DNA of 64,000 nt from Thermoplasmata archaeon (GTDB taxonomy: Archaea; Thermoplasmatota; Thermoplasmata; Thermoplasmatales; GCA-001856825). A program made the position numbers and the translations under genes. The stretch is taken from contig JAJYUZ010000001.1 in the NCBI GenBank assembly GCA_021792255.1, forward strand, positions 224,001 to 288,000, written 5' to 3'. This document shows, in pieces, positions 28,090 through 37,166 of this stretch (position 1 is the stretch's first letter; each line of letters opens with the position of its first letter). The notes below the pieces were generated by a model. It had not been told where the DNA came from. It did no database searches and was given only the letters and a program-made list of their open reading frames with translations.

Positions 28090-29649
28090 TCAGAAGTGGT
28101 CCTCTTTCTTGAGAAATAAGTTAAGAGAAAAGTAAGAAACTATGATATCGAGGATTATGGTAAGCGCGTACCCTTTCACATAATAAGAAATATTGAAGGC
28201 TATTACGTACCTTGCAGACGCAAAGACAAGAGCGTTAATTATAATGATTGGAAGCCCTATGGCAAAACTCTTCAGGAATATCCATCTGCCCCCGATTCCC
28301 TCCTGCGAAAGGGAGTAAACTTCTTTCGGAATTGCGTGGATCAGATACGCGCCACCAGCGAATAAGACCGCCGTCAGAATGATCGCAAAGTATGGATAAT
28401 TCAATAGCAGGTACGAAACTAGGGTTCTGTTTGCGAATGATATGATCACGATCAGTATGCCGTAGTAAATCATCCCTATACTGAGTACGCTTAACACTTT
28501 TGAAAAGAAGTACTGACGTCTGGAGATGGGGAGCGCGGAGAGATGCCACGCAGCTTTCCCCTCGAGTCCGATAAGCAGGATCAAATCAATAAGGAATACC
28601 AGAGAGACATAGGGAATGTAGAAAAATGACTGTAGAGAGCTAGAAGAAGTCGAAAGCAATTCGGGGATGATCGGCAGGATAAAGGTGATGGGGATCACCA
28701 TTATCATAATGGCCCCTCTCCTTCTAAACATTATTTTTAAATCCTTGTCGACAAGGGATGTGACTGGTCTTTTTAGCTTGAGTGTCGGACTTTTTTTGTG
28801 ATTTCGCGACACATCTGCGAACGTTTCCATCCTCTCTGAGAAACTCCTCCTGTGAAGGTACAAGTACGACGGATATACAATAGCAAACGTCCCTACGAAG
28901 GCTCCAAAAGGATAGACAGAAAGAGTCGAAATGTACTGCGATGTAACAGGAATGAAGTAATACAGGAACTGAGGAATCCTGATAAAAGTCTGAAAGGACG
29001 GGTTTGTTCCGACTTCAATTGCAAGTATGAAAACGACAAATATCAGAACCTGAAATACTTGACCAAGGTACAGCCTCTTAGTTTTCCTGTTGGTGTTCGT
29101 CTTGACAAATGTGACTCCAACAAGGAGTGAGATAAGCCTTGCAAAGTAGATGAATAGGACCGTGTACATTGTGAATATGACTATAGGAAGTGGATTCCTG
29201 GTCTCCACAGAAATGATTATCCCCGCAGGAATAGTAACGAAGGGGAGGTAGAACTCGTTGTACAAAAACAGTGAAATTGGGACCACTCTTCTTTCCACTT
29301 TCAGCGGAAGCTGCTTAAGGGGTGTCAGAAGTTTCATATCCCACACTCCTCTGTAAAATTGAGTATCACTCATTATGGCAAGAATCAAGAGCAACAAAAA
29401 CAGAATGAAACTGTCGCTGGACATTCCGGATTTTGTGGATATGCTCCCAATCCCAAACGACACTGAGATTATTCCATAAATGAATGTATTAACGTAAAGA
29501 GAGGAACGTACATTGTTGGTAAGATATCTCTTCGCATGAGTCACAGACTGCTTGTCATTCTTCTGAAATCTGGGGGTGTTCTTGAGGAATTGATACTTGA
29601 GCTCCGTGTTTAGGACCTTTGCAAGAAATAAATCACTTCGCAGAGTCAT
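28090..29649 (-). CDS. multi-pass membrane protein, ABC-2/permease-like
   Basis: About 12 TM in two halves, each with an LxxLP motif (LKQLPL, LSALPI); KDLKIMFR linker. Confidence 0.6.
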   Translation of the reverse strand: MTLRSDLFLAKVLNTELKYQFLKNTPRFQKNDKQSVTHAKRYLTNNVRSSLYVNTFIYGIISVSFGIGSISTKSGMSSDSFILFLLLLILAIMSDTQFYRGVWDMKLLTPLKQLPLKVERRVVPISLFLYNEFYLPFVTIPAGIIISVETRNPLPIVIFTMYTVLFIYFARLISLLVGVTFVKTNTNRKTKRLYLGQVFQVLIFVVFILAIEVGTNPSFQTFIRIPQFLYYFIPVTSQYISTLSVYPFGAFVGTFAIVYPSYLYLHRRSFSERMETFADVSRNHKKSPTLKLKRPVTSLVDKDLKIMFRRRGAIMIMVIPITFILPIIPELLSTSSSSLQSFFYIPYVSLVFLIDLILLIGLEGKAAWHLSALPISRRQYFFSKVLSVLSIGMIYYGILIVIISFANRTLVSYLLLNYPYFAIILTAVLFAGGAYLIHAIPKEVYSLSQEGIGGRWIFLKSFAIGLPIIIINALVFASARYVIAFNISYYVKGYALTIILDIIVSYFSLNLFLKKEDHF

Positions 29650-30382
29650 CTAGTACCTCGCTAAGCACTCTTCTCTTCCTTCTACTAAGCTCTAGTACGG
29701 TCGAATCTATTCTTGCAGTACCAGAGTCTTCGTTGAATTTCTTTAATTTCAGTATCTCTTTACCATCAGGGTCCACCACCCTACTGCCTCCCCAAAATAC
29801 CTGGTTTCGTTGGAGGCCGGCAATGTTCACATAAACTAGATACGATTGATACCCGACTGCCTTGGCTGGGAAGACCTTCTCAAAAAACGGATAGGAAGTA
29901 AAGGGAGAAGCAGATATGTTGATTAGTGCATCAATACCCTTTTCTGTCGAATCTTCGAAGAACAGATCGTAACAGATTTCAATTCCTAACTTGAATCCAT
30001 TGAATTCGACGGTAAGGGGTCTGTCTCCCCTCCTAAAATATCTCATCTCCTCGAATGGTCCAAAGTTTGGTAAGTGTTTCTTTTTGTAATAGTCGACGGA
30101 ATCCTTCACGACTACAACAGCAGAGTTGTAAAGGAATCTGTCTCTGAGAGGAGCACCGAAAATAACCATTCTTTCTCCGATTCTGTCCTGAACGTCTTGA
30201 ACGAACTCTCGACTCAAGGAGAATAAGTTCACATTGTCTCTGATAAGATATCCCGAATAGAACATCTCTGGAAATATCACAAGGTCAAAATCTTCATTTA
30301 GAGTCTGCTTAATGAGCCTTTCATTTGTCTCTTTGCCCTTGACTGGATTTAACTGCTTGAGAAGGACATCCAAAATCGCCAT
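29633..30382 (-). CDS. carbon-nitrogen hydrolase (nitrilase superfamily)
   Basis: E-K-C triad: FPEMF, YKKKHLP, EICYD. Confidence 0.9.
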   Translation of the reverse strand: MAILDVLLKQLNPVKGKETNERLIKQTLNEDFDLVIFPEMFYSGYLIRDNVNLFSLSREFVQDVQDRIGERMVIFGAPLRDRFLYNSAVVVVKDSVDYYKKKHLPNFGPFEEMRYFRRGDRPLTVEFNGFKLGIEICYDLFFEDSTEKGIDALINISASPFTSYPFFEKVFPAKAVGYQSYLVYVNIAGLQRNQVFWGGSRVVDPDGKEILKLKKFNEDSGTARIDSTVLELSRRKRRVLSEVLDDSAK

Positions 30383-30479
30383 TTTAGATTGTAATGAGTT
30401 CTGTTGATATGTATTTTCCTTTTGCTAGTTTCCAGAAAATCCAGAGCGAACGATATGAGAAGAGTAAAAATAAAAATAA

Positions 30480-31241
30480 TTATAGAGGTCTTGAGACCTC
30501 TGTTTCCACTGGATCGACTTCAATATTTATAGTGAGAACCTGTTCTGTTAGCTCTTCAGCAAGAGTCTCCTCTACAATCCTGTTGAAGTAGTCATTGTAC
30601 TTGCCATATAGGGTGTCGTAGAGCTTTAGTTGACTCACTATGATCGCCTCCATGTCTTCCTTGATTCTCATGTTTATTTCTCCTATCGATTCGAATTCGT
30701 TGTTGTCATAAACCTCAACGTGATCCGTCTCTTTCCTTATCTGAGCAAGCGCCCTGTCCGCGACTTCCTTTCTGTTGTCTTCAAATTCAAAAGGTCTCAC
30801 TGCAAATACCTTGAATGGGGTATTTTCACGCTTTAACAGTTTCACCATTTCGACTGCGCCTCCCGATCCTGTACCGCCTCCAAGAGTCGTGACTACGAGT
30901 ACCAAGTCAGTCCTTCGGAGAACCTGAACATCGATGAATGCGGAGTCTTCTTTGAAAGCTTTCTTTGCGACCTCCACATAACCACCAGAATCTCTGTTGT
31001 CCAGGACATATTCTGTCCCGATATTCATCGAGATGACATCGCTTCTCTTCGCGTTTGAAAGTGCGTCAGTATTAAGGCAGAACAAATTTACTTCCTTTCT
31101 CTTCTTGTTGAGCTCGGAAACTATATTGCAGCCCCCACCACCTATGCCTATGCATACGACGGAAGGTTCTAGGAATTTTTTACCACTTTTAAGACCGTTC
31201 GTCACTTTGTTTATTAAGTTAGCCCTATTCTTATCTATCAC
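30480..31241 (-). CDS. divergent FtsZ/tubulin-family protein, GTP-binding domain only (~253 aa)
   Basis: GIGGGGCN, NTD, LGGGTGSG signature, PFEFE, DNN; no T7 loop or C-terminal domain. GTG start at 31241 with GGGGTGA SD, overlapping the upstream RHH gene end. Confidence 0.85.
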   Translation of the reverse strand: MIDKNRANLINKVTNGLKSGKKFLEPSVVCIGIGGGGCNIVSELNKKRKEVNLFCLNTDALSNAKRSDVISMNIGTEYVLDNRDSGGYVEVAKKAFKEDSAFIDVQVLRRTDLVLVVTTLGGGTGSGGAVEMVKLLKRENTPFKVFAVRPFEFEDNRKEVADRALAQIRKETDHVEVYDNNEFESIGEINMRIKEDMEAIIVSQLKLYDTLYGKYNDYFNRIVEETLAEELTEQVLTINIEVDPVETEVSRPL

Positions 31242-31650
31242 TTTTTTCACCCCTCTGTCTCTCTTCTCTCTTCTCTTCGAAGGGAAGATCCTCAAAATTC
31301 AAAAGGTTCCTATCGTCAAGATACCCCCTGACTAGTTTGTTTAGCCACATTGGCAAAAAGTGTTCTTCATTGACTTTCCTTATGATGAACTCTATTGCAT
31401 CGTACCTGTCGGTGAAGAGACCCTTCATTACCATTTGATCCAGAGTATTCTGAGTTGCTTTGGAAAGCCTCACTTCAGTGTCTTCGACCGAGCGTTGCGT
31501 TTGAGGATGCTGTATGTAAGCATAGACGGCTGCACGTATGAGTTCCGATTTTGTCTTGAATCTGAGTGAAGTGCTAAGAAAGTCGTTTATTTCGTCGTCT
31601 TCTTGTGGCGTAAGACGAAGTGCAATTCTCCGGGTACTATTAGAATCCAC
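31231..31650 (-). CDS. tandem ribbon-helix-helix DNA-binding protein (CdrS-like position)
   Basis: RRIALRLT...FKTKSELIRAAV and TEVRLS...GLFTDRYDAIEFII give two RHH units; translationally coupled to the FtsZ-like gene. Confidence 0.75.
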   Translation of the reverse strand: MDSNSTRRIALRLTPQEDDEINDFLSTSLRFKTKSELIRAAVYAYIQHPQTQRSVEDTEVRLSKATQNTLDQMVMKGLFTDRYDAIEFIIRKVNEEHFLPMWLNKLVRGYLDDRNLLNFEDLPFEEKREERQRGEKSDR

Positions 31651-31795
31651 TTGGAACCAATCCTCTTGAAATAGTTATAGAGTTAACCCTATATAAATAT
31701 TTCTAATCATGGCATACAGTTAATTTAGTAGTTACCTAAAATAAATATTTTTAAAAATTAATCTTTTTGACGTTGTCTACACAATATTTTGGACA

Positions 31796-31891
31796 TTTGT
31801 CATGAAAACATGTCTGCAGTTGTTCGACGCGCTCTCTATGATTTGTCATACATTCTCGTCATAATCGAATGACAAAGTTCGCCGTTTGTCA
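31796..31891. promoter_or_regulatory. cluster of TTTGTCA(T) boxes, candidate RHH operator array
   Basis: TTTGTCAT at 31796 and 31842, inverted copy ATGACAAA at 31869, TTTGTCA at 31885, plus degenerate copies. Confidence 0.5.
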
Positions 31892-31963
31892 AAAGTTGTT
31901 ACCCGTTTGGCTTATGAAATTTATTCTTGTAAAAATTCTTAAAGCAGGTCTCCATTTCTCAAC

Positions 31964-32581
31964 GTGGATGAACAGAGCTATTCAGAGCTTCTAAGGAAGG
32001 TTAAATCTTCAGTCCAGAAGAGGGAAGAAAAGAAAAGATTTCAGAGCCCTAAACCAGAGATAATTACTGAGGGTAAGCTCACGATCATAAAGAATTTCAA
32101 GGACATAGTAGACGTAATCAATAGGGACGAATCTCACGTATTCAAGTATCTAATCAAGCAATTTGGATTATCGGGTGATGTCGCCGATGGACGACTAATT
32201 TTCAAGGGCAAGCCACCTGAGGGGAGCATAGAGAAGGCGATCCAAGAGTACCTCAGGATCTACGTTCAGTGTTATGAGTGTGGGAACTATGACACCGAAA
32301 TGATTAGAGAGAATAGAAATGAAGTTATAAGGTGCAAAGCCTGCGGAGCTGAAAGACCTCTTTATGCTCACAAAGAAATAAGGTATTCTGAAGAAAAAAT
32401 AGAGGAAGGCAAGACGTACGAGCTTGAGGTCACTGATTTGAACAGGGATGGCGATGGAATTTCAAAAAAAGGAGATATCACCGTAATTATCCCAGGTGCC
32501 AAGAAGGGGCAAAAAGCAAATATCAGAATAGATAGAATTCGTAAGAATTACGCTCTTGGCATCTTGGTGAAAAAGAGTTGA
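31964..32581 (+). CDS. eif2b: translation initiation factor 2 subunit beta with C-terminal TRAM domain
   Basis: Y.ELL, RF..P, G..TII.NF, zinc ribbon CYECG..DT..CKACGA, TRAM domain (GDG, IPGA..G). Confidence 0.93.
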   Translation: MDEQSYSELLRKVKSSVQKREEKKRFQSPKPEIITEGKLTIIKNFKDIVDVINRDESHVFKYLIKQFGLSGDVADGRLIFKGKPPEGSIEKAIQEYLRIYVQCYECGNYDTEMIRENRNEVIRCKACGAERPLYAHKEIRYSEEKIEEGKTYELEVTDLNRDGDGISKKGDITVIIPGAKKGQKANIRIDRIRKNYALGILVKKS

Positions 32582-35827: not shown

Positions 35828-36173
35828 CGCTACGGGAGAGAGTCGGTGATTACCGAAGCCATTTGTCGTCAAGTTACCAGGATTAGACCATAACAAGTGT
35901 GGCCTCTGTCCATTCTAGATCTGGAAATTACCTCTCGCCCCAGACTTGTCTTCTCCAATTTGGAGAAGTAAATTCTTTTTTAATCCCATAGATTGCTTCG
36001 GCAATTTGAACTATATCTTTGCACAAGAAAGAACTCATCAGGGCAACTTCCGATGACAGCCGACATGCATCAAGGAGTAAAAATCACTACCACACAACAG
36101 GGGAATGCGGCAAAATCGTCTGGGAAGTGGGAATATCTAAATATCGAAATAATTTGTCAAATTGGTAGTTAGC

Positions 36174-37166
36174 ATGCCAGATGATGAAACTTATCAAGAT
36201 ACGGATGCTGAGTTAATAGAAGTTCTAAAGGGCTTGAAGACGAGCATTAAGATTTTTGGCTGCGGCGGATCAGGATCAAATACAATTACCCGAATTATGG
36301 AAGAAGGTATACAGGGGGCAGATGTAATTGCGGCAAACACTGATGCCCAGCATCTTCTCTTGACCCAAGCCTCAAGGAAGATTCTGCTTGGGAGGAGGAC
36401 TACCAGAGGGTTAGGTGCAGGTGCCCTTCCACAGATAGGAGAAATGTCAGCAAGAGAGGCTGAAATAGACATCAACGAGGTCGTAGAGGGTTCGGACATA
36501 GTTTTTGTGACTGCTGGAATGGGAGGAGGGACAGGAACTGGATCAGCTCCCGTCGTTGCTGAATTGGCCAAGAACGCTGGTGCACTCGTTGTTTCGGTTG
36601 TGACCACGCCTTTCAAATCGGAAGGTGCGATGAGAAAGGAGAATGCGCTGTGGGGTCTGGAGAAACTGAAAGAGAAATCAGACACGATAGTGATCATTCC
36701 AAACGACAAACTCCTGGAAATAGTTCCTAGATTGCCTCTAAACGAAGCGTTCAGATTCGCAGACGAAATTTTGATGAAATCCATAAAGGGACTGACTGAA
36801 CTCGTCACGAAACCCGGACTCGTAAATCTGGATTTTAACGACTTGAAGACCGTCATGAAAGATGGCGGAACAGCAATGATAGGAATGGGACAGTCGGGTT
36901 CTCAGGATAGGGCACTTGAGGCGGCCAAGAAAGCGCTGACTTCTCCGCTCCTAGACCTAGAAGTCTCCACTGCTACTTCTGCCATAGTTTCGGTCACTGG
37001 AAGTTCAAATATGTCGGTAGAGGAAGCTCACACAATCCTGGATGAGATCAAGAAGAAGATAAACCCGAATGCGAGGATAATATGGGGAGCCAGAATAGAC
37101 GAGACTATGAAAAATGATATAAAGGTATTAGCCATACTGGTGGGAGCCAAAAACAAGTACGTTTAG
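36174..37166 (+). CDS. ftsZ: cell division protein FtsZ (FtsZ1 type), lacking C-terminal tail
   Basis: GCGGSGSN, NTDAQHL, GLGAG, GMGGGTGTG, PFKSEG, T7 loop LVNLDFNDL, IIWGA; upstream of secE-spt5. Confidence 0.96.
   Translation: MPDDETYQDTDAELIEVLKGLKTSIKIFGCGGSGSNTITRIMEEGIQGADVIAANTDAQHLLLTQASRKILLGRRTTRGLGAGALPQIGEMSAREAEIDINEVVEGSDIVFVTAGMGGGTGTGSAPVVAELAKNAGALVVSVVTTPFKSEGAMRKENALWGLEKLKEKSDTIVIIPNDKLLEIVPRLPLNEAFRFADEILMKSIKGLTELVTKPGLVNLDFNDLKTVMKDGGTAMIGMGQSGSQDRALEAAKKALTSPLLDLEVSTATSAIVSVTGSSNMSVEEAHTILDEIKKKINPNARIIWGARIDETMKNDIKVLAILVGAKNKYV

What the first reader, a model, noticed from the sequence alone, without database searches (positions are those of the whole stretch)
30480..31650. 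FtsZ paralogue reduced to its GTP-binding domain, coupled to a tandem-RHH regulator: candidate filament-capping or regulatory module
Seen: a ~253-aa protein with T1 (GIGGGGCN), T2 (NTD), a degenerate T3 (NRDSGG), T4 (GGGTGSG), T5 (PFEFE) and T6 (DNN). It has no T7 synergy loop (NxDxxD) and no C-terminal activation domain; a ~70-aa helical acidic tail follows instead. It has its own SD and overlaps an upstream double-RHH gene. Established: an RHH gene (cdrS) directly upstream of ftsZ2 is a conserved euryarchaeal arrangement, and FtsZ polymerisation and GTP hydrolysis need the T7 loop of the adjacent subunit. Inference: this ftsZ2-position protein could bind GTP and dock onto the T7 face of FtsZ1 without extending the filament, acting as an end-capper or nucleator. 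Alternatively it is a repurposed tubulin-like switch.
Basis: partly seen in the sequence, partly recalled or inferred. Interest (0 to 1): 0.82.

Follow-up and report, generated by a model that had tools for sequence, protein, structure and literature searches.

The report
Half-FtsZ with its own RHH regulator
An acid-loving archaeon keeps, under strong selection, a two-gene operon that pairs a doubled DNA-binding regulator with a cell-division protein (FtsZ) reduced to its GTP-binding half, a form that cannot extend a normal filament and is not described in the papers I could search.

Summary
Window 30480-31241 (-) encodes a 253-aa protein with only the FtsZ GTPase domain, one long helix and a disordered acidic end. 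It has no T7 loop and no C-terminal domain. It overlaps by 11 nt a 139-aa tandem ribbon-helix-helix (RHH) gene (31231-31650).

It is neither a pseudogene nor an assembly error. The pair is present in 24 of 24 loci of the family, dN/dS is about 0.06, and contigs from other studies are identical. Short relatives occur across class Thermoplasmata.

Profile scores, signature columns and the CdrS-like partner point to the FtsZ2 lineage. The tree alone cannot root it.

New for this genome:
- All three full-length FtsZ are FtsZ1-type.
- The only other FtsZ2-line protein is a 289-aa two-domain FtsZ fold without GTP motifs, behind a second tandem-RHH gene.
- A unique cluster of four TGACAAA boxes lies upstream of the operon.

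The capping idea is plausible but untested. The complex prediction gave no answer. Five complete genomes of a sister family keep the half-FtsZ without any full-length FtsZ, which argues against capping as the universal role.

This scan has already noted the same module on other Thermoplasmata DNA (at least 10 notes). I found no paper describing it.

The parts
31231..31650 (-). Tandem-RHH gene, 139 aa. Repeat 1 is about residues 6-50 (31501-31635). Repeat 2 is about residues 58-95 (31366-31479). A family-specific C-terminal extension covers residues 96-139 (31234-31365).
   Evidence: ORF. NCBIfam CdrS NF058555 matches at 1.1e-5, 25.3 bits, below the cut-off of 100, on residues 8-55. hhalign to the Pfam-positive double RHH_1 family covers both repeats, E 7e-16. 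Orthologue present upstream in 24 of 24 family loci. dN/dS median 0.058 over 54 pairs.
30480..31241 (-). Half-FtsZ gene, 253 aa from GTG 31241. The stop codon is at 30480-30482.
   Evidence: Orthologues of 250-282 aa in 23 of 24 other genomes of the family. Contigs of three runs are identical over 30300-31262.
30687..31163 (-). FtsZ GTPase domain, residues 27-185, with T1, T2, altered T3, T4, T5 and T6.
   Evidence: PF00091. Motif positions. AF2 pLDDT mostly 86-97 in this part. Foldseek top hits are FtsZ, about 189 columns at rmsd 2.3-2.4. dN/dS 0.035.
30543..30686 (-). Single long helix, residues 186-233. It is the H7 equivalent running on where T7 and H8 would follow.
   Evidence: AF2 secondary structure. 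No conserved NxDxxD. Tail dN/dS 0.089.
30483..30542 (-). Disordered acidic C-terminal end, residues 234-253. It holds a conserved alternating motif (LTINIEVDP, 30510-30536) found in the four genera of this family but not in the sister family.
   Evidence: pLDDT below 50. Alignment. Position. Function unknown. Its likeness to FtsZ C-terminal peptides was considered and is not claimed.
31248..31254 (-). Shine-Dalgarno-like GGGGTGA, 6 nt before the GTG start. It lies inside the end of the RHH gene, which suggests translational coupling.
   Evidence: Read from the sequence. The anti-SD match is from recall.
31796..31891 (.). Four TGACAAA boxes, three in one orientation and one inverted. They lie in the 313-bp spacer between the RHH gene and the divergent aIF2-beta gene. 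Candidate operator.
   Evidence: 4 of the window's 20 copies lie here. This is the only cluster of 3 or more within 120 bp among 341 sites in the 1.59-Mb genome. At least one exact copy is present upstream in 12 of 21 f1 loci (own included) with the full 340 nt, and in 3 of 4 loci of the sister family f5. Binding not tested.
31690..31697 (-). TTTATATA, a TATA-box-like word about 43 nt before the RHH start codon.
   Evidence: Read from the sequence only. Inference, not tested.
36162..37166 (+). Context: a full-length FtsZ1-type gene (334 aa) followed by secE, nusG and L11. It is one of three possible T7-bearing partners in the genome.
   Evidence: Tubulin plus FtsZ_C. TIGR00065 400 bits. Inside the FtsZ1 clade. 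Partnership is inferred only.

Best explanation
This is a conserved chromosomal operon of the cdrS-ftsZ2 kind, remodelled.

The first gene is a single-chain double-RHH DNA-binding protein. It most likely autoregulates the operon through the unique cluster of TGACAAA boxes upstream.

The second gene is translationally coupled to it. It is an FtsZ2-line protein that keeps the nucleotide pocket and the 'top' (nucleotide) face. It has lost the T7 loop and the whole C-terminal domain, that is, the 'bottom' face.

Such a protein should bind GTP. It could accept the T7 loop of a complete FtsZ-family subunit, but it cannot offer one. When it joins a filament end it is therefore a dead end.

I commit to this reading: in this genome it limits or tunes assembly of the FtsZ1-type filaments as a natural bottom-defective subunit. 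This would be a cap at the growing end, possibly also a sequestering partner. Its dose would be set by its own regulator.

Shown: the architecture, its conservation and selection, the ancestry signals, and the uniqueness of the box cluster.
Inferred: GTP binding, docking on FtsZ, capping, and autoregulation.
For: Architecture.

Nucleotide-site residues and lower-subunit residues of the composite active site are invariant or nearly so in the 28-row family alignment: G34, G35, N57, D59, G87, G122, E154, R157. Passages of PMC8936486 name D46, G72 and R143 of S. aureus FtsZ as the lower-subunit partners of the upper T7 loop. Equating them with D59, G87 and R157 is my motif-based mapping.

The same passages say that monomers add by their GTP-bound top face to the T7-exposing bottom end, that bottom-interface mutants are toxic, and that MciZ caps that end.

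Selection: dN/dS has a median of 0.06 over 7 unsaturated pairs. It is 0.035 for the GTPase part and 0.089 for the tail.

Conservation:
- 37 short database clusters carry PF00091 only.
- 23 of 24 other genomes of the family have the orthologue.
- 58 of the first 60 class-wide rows, each from a different genome, are open frames of 237-322 aa.

FtsZ2 line:
- hhalign gives 8e-32 against FtsZ2-like and 3.8e-23 against FtsZ1-type.
- Signature columns give 7 FtsZ2, 1 FtsZ1 and 12 neither, of 20.
- The RHH partner is homologous to the one in front of full-length FtsZ2-like genes.

Possible partners: three FtsZ1-type genes with a canonical T7 are in the genome.

Boxes.
Against: No binding, GTP or DNA assay exists.

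T3 is altered (NRDSGG), so gamma-phosphate sensing may differ.

Five complete genomes of sister family f8 hold only the half-FtsZ and a second FtsZ-like protein in an open frame of 284-311 aa. They have no full-length FtsZ1-type. The half-FtsZ therefore has a role that does not need canonical filaments.

D59 is replaced in some class-level relatives.

The tree gives three separate clades and cannot show descent from FtsZ2.

The TGACAAA boxes lie 146-241 nt before the RHH start and nearer the divergent aIF2-beta gene. They may serve that gene. Exact copies are missing upstream in 9 of 21 family loci.
Confidence: 0.35

Rival explanations
1. Dedicated pair. The half-FtsZ works with the protein of the second RHH-linked module. 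In this genome that is the 289-aa FtsZ-fold protein without GTP motifs. In sister families it is a full FtsZ2-like protein. The two would form a heterodimer or co-polymer with divided labour, one giving the nucleotide pocket and the other the bottom face. It would not be a cap on FtsZ1 filaments.
For: Both modules co-occur. In family f1 the half-FtsZ is in 23 of 24 relatives and the 289-aa protein in 21 of 24. Both modules were seen in the genomes checked for it in f5 (G028), f4 (G027), f10 (G150), f11 (G175) and f8 (G160).

Five complete f8 genomes have these two as their only tubulin-family proteins.

The 289-aa protein folds as a whole FtsZ: pLDDT 88.6, about 304 columns, TMq 0.78. It keeps an invariant Asp where the second T7 aspartate aligns.
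Against: No binding test was run on this pair.

The T7 of the 289-aa protein is degenerate (N to G, first D to S).

The f8 counterpart (L102) shows no T7 motif either.

Co-occurrence among kin is weak evidence.
Confidence: 0.25
2. GTP-sensing partner of its own regulator. The half-FtsZ binds the C-terminal extension of the tandem-RHH protein, arranged like a type II toxin-antitoxin or a co-repressor pair. It would tune transcription of division genes to the GTP level, or be held inactive by the RHH protein.
For: The genes overlap by 11 nt, and the SD-like word lies inside the upstream gene. The RHH family has a conserved 45-aa extension beyond the two repeats. Both genes are equally constrained. 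There is a unique box cluster upstream.
Against: The canonical cdrS-ftsZ2 pair has the same gene order without any such complex being reported (passages of PMC7439475). Nothing here tests binding.
Confidence: 0.15
3. Self-assembly by a non-canonical interface, for example the long helix pairing as a coiled coil. This would give a scaffold of its own.
For: A 48-residue helix projects from the domain. The tail is under purifying selection (0.089). The protein is kept in genomes without canonical FtsZ.
Against: pLDDT of the distal helix is only 67-69. The tail sequence varies much between genera. No test of self-association was run.
Confidence: 0.1
4. TubZRC-like DNA segregation cassette, with a DNA-binding adaptor, a tubulin-like motor and centromere-like repeats.
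For: An RHH DNA binder, a tubulin-family GTPase and four iterated boxes are present.
Against: The profile matches FtsZ at 1e-28 but TubZ and RepX only at 5e-8 to 5e-10. The elements needed to polymerise are missing. The locus is chromosomal and inherited vertically across a class, with housekeeping neighbours.
Confidence: 0.04
5. Pseudogene, frameshifted FtsZ2 or assembly artefact.
For: None beyond the short length.
Against: Orthologues have the same length across four genera and beyond. dN/dS is about 0.06. No FtsZ_C-like sequence follows the stop, and the next gene starts 97 nt later. Contigs of runs from other studies are identical, with 0 gaps.
Confidence: 0.01

Closest known systems
cdrS-ftsZ2 operon of Euryarchaeota (Halobacterium salinarum, Haloferax volcanii; PMC7439475 and PMC8406309). 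I saw passages of the first and only the search listing and abstract of the second.
   Same: An RHH gene sits directly upstream of, and is co-oriented with, an FtsZ2-line gene. Canonical small-RHH plus full FtsZ2 pairs are present elsewhere in the same phylum.
   Different: The regulator is a 139-aa single-chain double RHH with an extra tail, not a small single RHH. It scores 25.3 bits against the CdrS cut-off of 100. The FtsZ partner lacks T7 and the C-terminal domain. The module coexists with a second RHH-FtsZ2-like module.
Bottom-interface FtsZ mutants and the end-capping inhibitor MciZ (passages of PMC8936486). SulA also binds the same face of FtsZ. For SulA I saw only the entry title of 1ofu. 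Its mechanism is recalled.
   Same: It would work like them. Either the top face is intact and the bottom face defective, or the bottom (T7) end of FtsZ is occupied, so growth at that end stops.
   Different: Those are point mutants or unrelated small proteins of bacteria. This is a natural, conserved FtsZ paralogue of archaea with its own regulator. No functional test exists.
FtsZl1 family (Makarova and Koonin 2010, PMC2875224; passages).
   Same: A tubulin-superfamily protein that lacks the canonical C-terminal domain and sits beside conventional FtsZ.
   Different: FtsZl1 has a coiled coil and an alpha-helical C-terminal domain, lacks T6-H7 and lies in vWA operons. This protein keeps T6 and H7, is 253 aa long and is RHH-linked.
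'Non-canonical' or uncharacterised archaeal FtsZ-like sequences seen in trees (PMC9856176; PMC9723716).
   Same: PMC9723716 mentions uncharacterised Thermoplasmata sequences branching between FtsZ2 and CetZ. These may include this family.
   Different: No truncation, RHH pairing or function is described in the passages I saw.
Alpha/beta-tubulin division of labour (recalled, no call).
   Same: An analogy only for the rival 'dedicated pair' reading: two paralogues that have each lost a different activity.
   Different: No evidence of a heterodimer here.

Membership tests
Tubulin/FtsZ superfamily | GTPase domain above the Pfam gathering score (PF00091) | tested here: met
   69.2 bits against a cut-off of 33.
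Tubulin/FtsZ superfamily | Signature GGGTG[ST]G (T4) and the fold | tested here: met
   GGGTGSG at residues 121-127. Foldseek top hits are all FtsZ.
Canonical FtsZ (TIGR00065 equivalog) | Whole-protein score at or above the curated cut-off | tested here: not met
   72.8 bits against 295.2.
Canonical FtsZ (TIGR00065 equivalog) | C-terminal domain (PF12327) | tested here: not met
   Not found in the protein. A genome-wide search finds it only in the three full-length FtsZ.
Canonical FtsZ (TIGR00065 equivalog) | T7 synergy loop NxDxxD | tested here: not met
   No conserved motif in the 28-row or 10-row alignments.
Archaeal FtsZ2 lineage | Nearer to FtsZ2 than to FtsZ1 profiles | tested here: met
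   hhalign 8e-32 against 3.8e-23. phmmer 1e-14 to 1e-19 against 1e-7 to 1e-13. Signature columns 7 to 1, with 12 neither.
Archaeal FtsZ2 lineage | Branches inside the FtsZ2 clade | tested here: inconclusive
   The 14 short proteins form one clade (SH-aLRT 99), and FtsZ1 forms another (100). The AU test cannot choose a sister group (p 0.842). Branches are long.
Archaeal FtsZ2 lineage | cdrS-like RHH gene directly upstream | tested here: met
CdrS (NF058555 equivalog) | Score at or above the curated cut-off; small single-RHH protein | tested here: not met
   25.3 bits against 100. The protein is 139 aa with two RHH repeats. In a phylum-wide search, 0 of 151 genomes scored over the cut-off.
RHH superfamily | Homology to a Pfam RHH_1-positive family | tested here: met
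   hhalign probability 98.6, E 7e-16 over both repeats. The partner family has RHH_1 twice at 2e-11.
CetZ | Closer to CetZ than to FtsZ | tested here: not met
   The profile scores 1.2e-13 and 3.5e-13 against CetZ structures 4b45 and 4b46, and 7.9e-29 against FtsZ.
TubZ/TubR partition system | TubZ-type GTPase able to polymerise, on a plasmid or phage | tested here: not met
   TubZ and RepX score 5e-8 to 5e-10. The locus is chromosomal and conserved across a class. That TubR is a winged-helix protein rather than an RHH is recalled.
FtsZl1 | Coiled coil plus alpha-helical C-terminal domain, no T6-H7, vWA operon | tested here: not met
   Features from passages of PMC2875224. Here T6 and H7 are present, and the neighbours are aIF2-beta and a CN hydrolase.
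Type II toxin-antitoxin pair | The RHH antitoxin binds and neutralises the downstream gene product | not testable with these tools
   Only the gene layout resembles it.

The most novel reading that the evidence does not exclude
In Thermoplasmata the FtsZ2 line has split into two RHH-controlled proteins that have each kept a different half of the FtsZ mechanism. One is a GTP-binding half-FtsZ. The other is a two-domain FtsZ fold that in this genome has lost its GTP motifs. Together they would form a heteromeric tubulin-type machine with divided labour. In lineages without any canonical FtsZ this pair would be the whole FtsZ-type division apparatus.
Probability: 0.2. Interest if true: 0.85.

Novelty: new variant of a known kind. 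Interest (0 to 1): 0.66.

Why it matters
Known negative regulators of FtsZ assembly (MciZ, named; SulA, MinC and MipZ by title or recall) are bacterial. I found no archaeal counterpart in my searches.

A conserved FtsZ paralogue has been cut by evolution to the nucleotide-binding half. Deliberate bottom-interface mutants give a protein of the same kind. It is therefore a ready-made candidate for an archaeal filament-end regulator.

It is easy to test in vitro with the organism's own FtsZ proteins.

The family also persists in complete genomes with no full-length FtsZ. This raises the question of how those archaea divide and what a tubulin-fold GTPase can do without a polymerisation interface.

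The doubled regulator and its unique box cluster give a handle on archaeal cell-cycle transcription beyond haloarchaea.

Tried and rejected
Complex prediction: FtsZ1-type alignment A2, two GTP and half-FtsZ alignment A1 gave the verdict 'no answer', with scores 0.00 and 0.00. It says nothing either way.

Expression: no RNA holder is listed for window 30300-32000. Co-transcription is therefore untested.

The 289-aa protein:
- As a single sequence against the FtsZ1 profile it was not significant (E 0.3).
- Pfam found nothing in it.
- Only the family alignment gave a signal.
- L102 against the 289-aa family was not significant (E 0.16).

C-terminal motif LTINIEVDP: I compared it with the C-terminal peptides of FtsZ1 and FtsZ2 proteins. 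The likeness to GLDAEIDSV-type ends is slight and the motif is not terminal, so I claim nothing.

Tiny membrane protein downstream, reported in earlier notes on other genomes:
- The 97-nt spacer has no ORF of 20 aa or more with an ATG, GTG or TTG start on the operon's strand.
- A 44-aa hydrophobic frame starts only at ATA. It is broken by stops in orthologous loci.
- I rejected it for this family.

Stand-alone FtsZ C-terminal domain elsewhere in the genome: not found with PF12327.

Tree as proof of FtsZ2 descent: rejected, because the result is a three-clade star.

Literature: seven searches and passages of eight papers gave no description of a half-FtsZ with an RHH partner. Searches failed on term format and were re-sent.

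The pseudogene, assembly-error and TubZRC readings were rejected, as set out under the rival explanations.
Full report
**What is there.**
On the minus strand, window 31231-31650 encodes a 139-aa protein and 30480-31241 a 253-aa protein.
- The longest frame of the second gene starts at TTG 31295.
- The conserved start is GTG 31241. A GGGGTGA word lies 6 nt upstream of it.
- This GTG lies 11 nt inside the end of the upstream gene. The two genes therefore look translationally coupled.

Pfam sees only the tubulin/FtsZ GTPase domain (69.2 bits, cut-off 33) and no FtsZ_C. The FtsZ five kilobases away (36162-37166) has both domains. The FtsZ equivalog model gives 72.8 bits against a cut-off of 295.2.

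An AlphaFold2 model built on 28 relatives has pLDDT 82.5. It shows a confident GTPase fold, one helix over residues 186-233 and a disordered acidic end.

Its best structural matches are all FtsZ. They cover about 189 columns at rmsd 2.3-2.4, that is, the N-terminal domain plus helix H7.

A family profile matches solved FtsZ at 7.9e-29, CetZ at about 1e-13, and TubZ or RepX at 5e-8 to 5e-10.

The window protein has a T7-like YNDYFN, but it is not conserved. No short relative has NxDxxD where full FtsZ proteins have it.

**It is a real gene.**
The word-indexed protein search returned 81 proteins.
- The best 37 have E 3.7e-153 to 1.6e-50 and 38-97% identity. They are 162-273 aa long and carry PF00091 alone.
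- From rank 38 on (E 1.3e-14 and weaker), 43 of 44 are full FtsZ with both domains.

Among 60 related genomes, 23 of the 24 other genomes of the window's family (f1) have a strong orthologue in an open frame of 252-285 aa. The miss is a 61%-complete genome.

In all 24 family loci, including the window's own, an orthologue of the 139-aa gene lies directly upstream.

Synonymous sites are mostly saturated. Where they are not:
- dN/dS is 0.05-0.15, median 0.06, over 7 pairs.
- It is 0.035 for the GTPase part and 0.089 for the tail.
- It is 0.058 for the RHH gene over 54 pairs.

Contigs of three public runs from two studies match 30300-31262 with no differing letter and no gap. A fourth run, from a third study, matches 30300-30979.

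Close relatives do not have a full-length gene here, and nothing downstream looks like a lost domain.

**Wider distribution.**
The same pair occurs in other families of the order.
- Four loci of f5 have a 124-126-aa RHH (one is a 183-aa frame) followed by a 243-287-aa FtsZ.
- One locus of f4 has the pair.
- One locus of f7 has a degenerate copy.

In a sample of 201 genomes of the class, 193 match the family profile at E 1e-15 or better. The first 60 rows come from 60 different genomes, and 58 of them are open frames of 237-322 aa. That tally includes one unpublished genome, G279.

In the representative library, 17 proteins reach E 1e-30. Thirteen of them are 239-303 aa long.

The nearest labelled relative is an 'I-plasma' Thermoplasmatales MAG, at 78% identity.

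Earlier notes of this scan describe the same module in at least ten other Thermoplasmata genomes. My results agree with them, and I tested their main points independently here.

**Ancestry.**
The genome holds five PF00091 hits: three full-length genes (334, 363 and 396 aa), the half-FtsZ, and a 183-aa fragment-like ORF beside orc1/cdc6.

In an 82-row tree, all three full-length genes fall in a clade of 32 with SH-aLRT 99. That clade also holds the secE-nusG-linked genes, so it is FtsZ1-type. Two other genomes of the family have the same set.

Elsewhere in the phylum, canonical small-RHH plus full FtsZ2 pairs are common.

Three kinds of comparison place the half-FtsZ nearer to these FtsZ2-type proteins.
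- phmmer gives 1e-14 to 1e-19 against them, and 1e-7 to 1e-13 against FtsZ1-type.
- hhalign gives 8e-32 against 3.8e-23.
- Of 20 columns that separate the two types, 7 match FtsZ2, 1 matches FtsZ1 and 12 match neither. The FtsZ2-type matches include the DNN of T6 against PND in FtsZ1.

The tree itself is not decisive. In a reduced 56-row tree the 14 short proteins from four families form one clade (99) and FtsZ1 another (100). The AU test does not reject either arrangement of the three groups (p 0.842).

I read it as an old duplicate of the FtsZ2 line. I mark that as supported by similarity and gene order, not by tree topology.

**The regulator.**
The 139-aa protein matches the CdrS model weakly on residues 8-55 (25.3 bits, cut-off 100).

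Its family alignment aligns over both halves with a second family in which Pfam finds RHH_1 twice (probability 98.6, E 7e-16). It is therefore a single-chain double RHH. It also has a conserved 45-aa extension.

That second RHH family sits upstream of full-length, 343-366-aa FtsZ2-like genes in sister families.

**A second module in this genome.**
The second RHH family is also present in this genome, outside the window, at G000:C3:410298-410639. There it overlaps a 289-aa ORF that Pfam does not recognise.

That ORF is conserved in 21 of 24 family relatives. This query did not find it in the 20 genomes of other families searched.

Its family profile matches FtsZ2-like proteins (probability 92.7, E 4.4e-7, 194 columns).

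Its model (pLDDT 88.6) superposes on whole FtsZ structures over about 304 columns at only 13-15% identity.

Its T1 and T4 motifs are gone. Of the T7 residues, only the second aspartate position is kept.

So in this family the FtsZ2 line survives as two complementary remnants, each behind its own double-RHH gene.

**Candidate operator.**
Four TGACAAA boxes lie at 31796-31891, between the RHH gene and the divergent aIF2-beta gene. Two of them form an inverted pair.

The genome has 341 such sites. This is its only cluster of three or more within 120 bp.

At least one exact copy lies in the matching upstream region in 12 of the 21 f1 loci (own included) for which 340 nt were available, and in 3 of 4 f5 loci. 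These genomes are kin, so the counts are not independent. The boxes could also serve the neighbouring gene.

**Mechanism.**
Passages of PMC8936486 state four things.
- FtsZ monomers add through their GTP-bound top face to the filament end that exposes T7.
- D46, G72 and R143 of the lower subunit meet the upper T7 loop.
- Bottom-interface mutants are toxic.
- MciZ caps that end.

By my motif mapping, the half-FtsZ keeps those lower-subunit positions as D59, G87 and R157. These are invariant in the 28-row family alignment. The protein has no bottom face at all.

The most economical reading is therefore a natural terminal subunit. It would cap or tune filaments of the three FtsZ1-type proteins, and its dose would be set by the coupled regulator.

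Against this as a general answer, five complete single-contig genomes of family f8 contain only the half-FtsZ and a second FtsZ-like protein in an open frame of 284-311 aa. They have no full-length FtsZ1-type gene. The family must have a role that does not depend on canonical filaments.

That favours the rival in which the two RHH-linked proteins work together.

No call measured binding.

I give the cap reading 0.35 and the dedicated-pair reading 0.25. The remainder goes to a regulator-bound GTP switch, self-assembly, and the disfavoured partition and artefact readings.

**Comparison with what is known.**
By gene order and homology this is a variant of the cdrS-ftsZ2 locus (PMC7439475, passages).

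It fails the membership tests for canonical FtsZ, CdrS proper, CetZ, TubZ and FtsZl1 (PMC2875224, passages).

Seven literature searches and passages of eight papers gave no description of it. The nearest mention is of uncharacterised Thermoplasmata FtsZ-like sequences between FtsZ2 and CetZ in one tree (PMC9723716).

**Verdict.**
- It is a new variant of a known kind.
- Interest is 0.66.

Noticed in passing
G000:C3:410298-411501 (outside the window; locus L205:499-1702): A second tandem-RHH gene (113 aa, Pfam RHH_1 twice) overlaps a 289-aa ORF. The ORF folds as a whole two-domain FtsZ but has lost the T1 and T4 GTP motifs. It is conserved in 21 of 24 family relatives. Its RHH is the orthologue of the one in front of full-length FtsZ2-like genes in sister families.
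   Followed up: yes
L005:1396-1947 (G000:C3, about 114.2-114.75 kb): A 183-aa ORF directly after an Orc1/Cdc6-like gene. It matches only the second half of the tubulin GTPase domain (PF00091 1.1e-8, residues 36-125) and lacks the GGGTG signature. Similar 251-256-aa ORFs occur in two other genomes of the family.
   Followed up: partly
window 36162-37166: The secE/nusG-linked FtsZ1-type protein (334 aa) ends right after the globular C-terminal domain, with no linker or C-terminal peptide. Its two paralogues (363 and 396 aa) end in GLDAEIDSVM and GLDWNIDSV. It may be unable to bind a membrane anchor such as SepF, which the genome has.
   Followed up: no
window 36153-36159: One more TGACAAA copy lies immediately before the start of the FtsZ1-type gene. 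A single copy is within chance expectation.
   Followed up: no
G119, G160, G155, G368, G201 (family f8, complete genomes): These genomes have no full-length FtsZ. They hold only a half-FtsZ (open frame 243-260 aa) and, in four of the five, a second FtsZ-like protein in an open frame of 284-311 aa. The second protein is RHH-linked in the two genomes checked. How these archaea divide is open.
   Followed up: partly
P0084, P0085, P0087: Three representatives of 744-840 aa match the half-FtsZ profile in two separate stretches each (E 1.8e-46 to 1.6e-38). They may be tandem fusions or merged gene calls.
   Followed up: no
window 29633-30382: A CN-hydrolase gene (PF00795) follows the half-FtsZ after 97 nt on the same strand. 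It is the conserved downstream neighbour in 20 of the 24 family loci, all of them in this genus. It is not the neighbour in the other genera, so it is probably not part of the module.
   Followed up: partly
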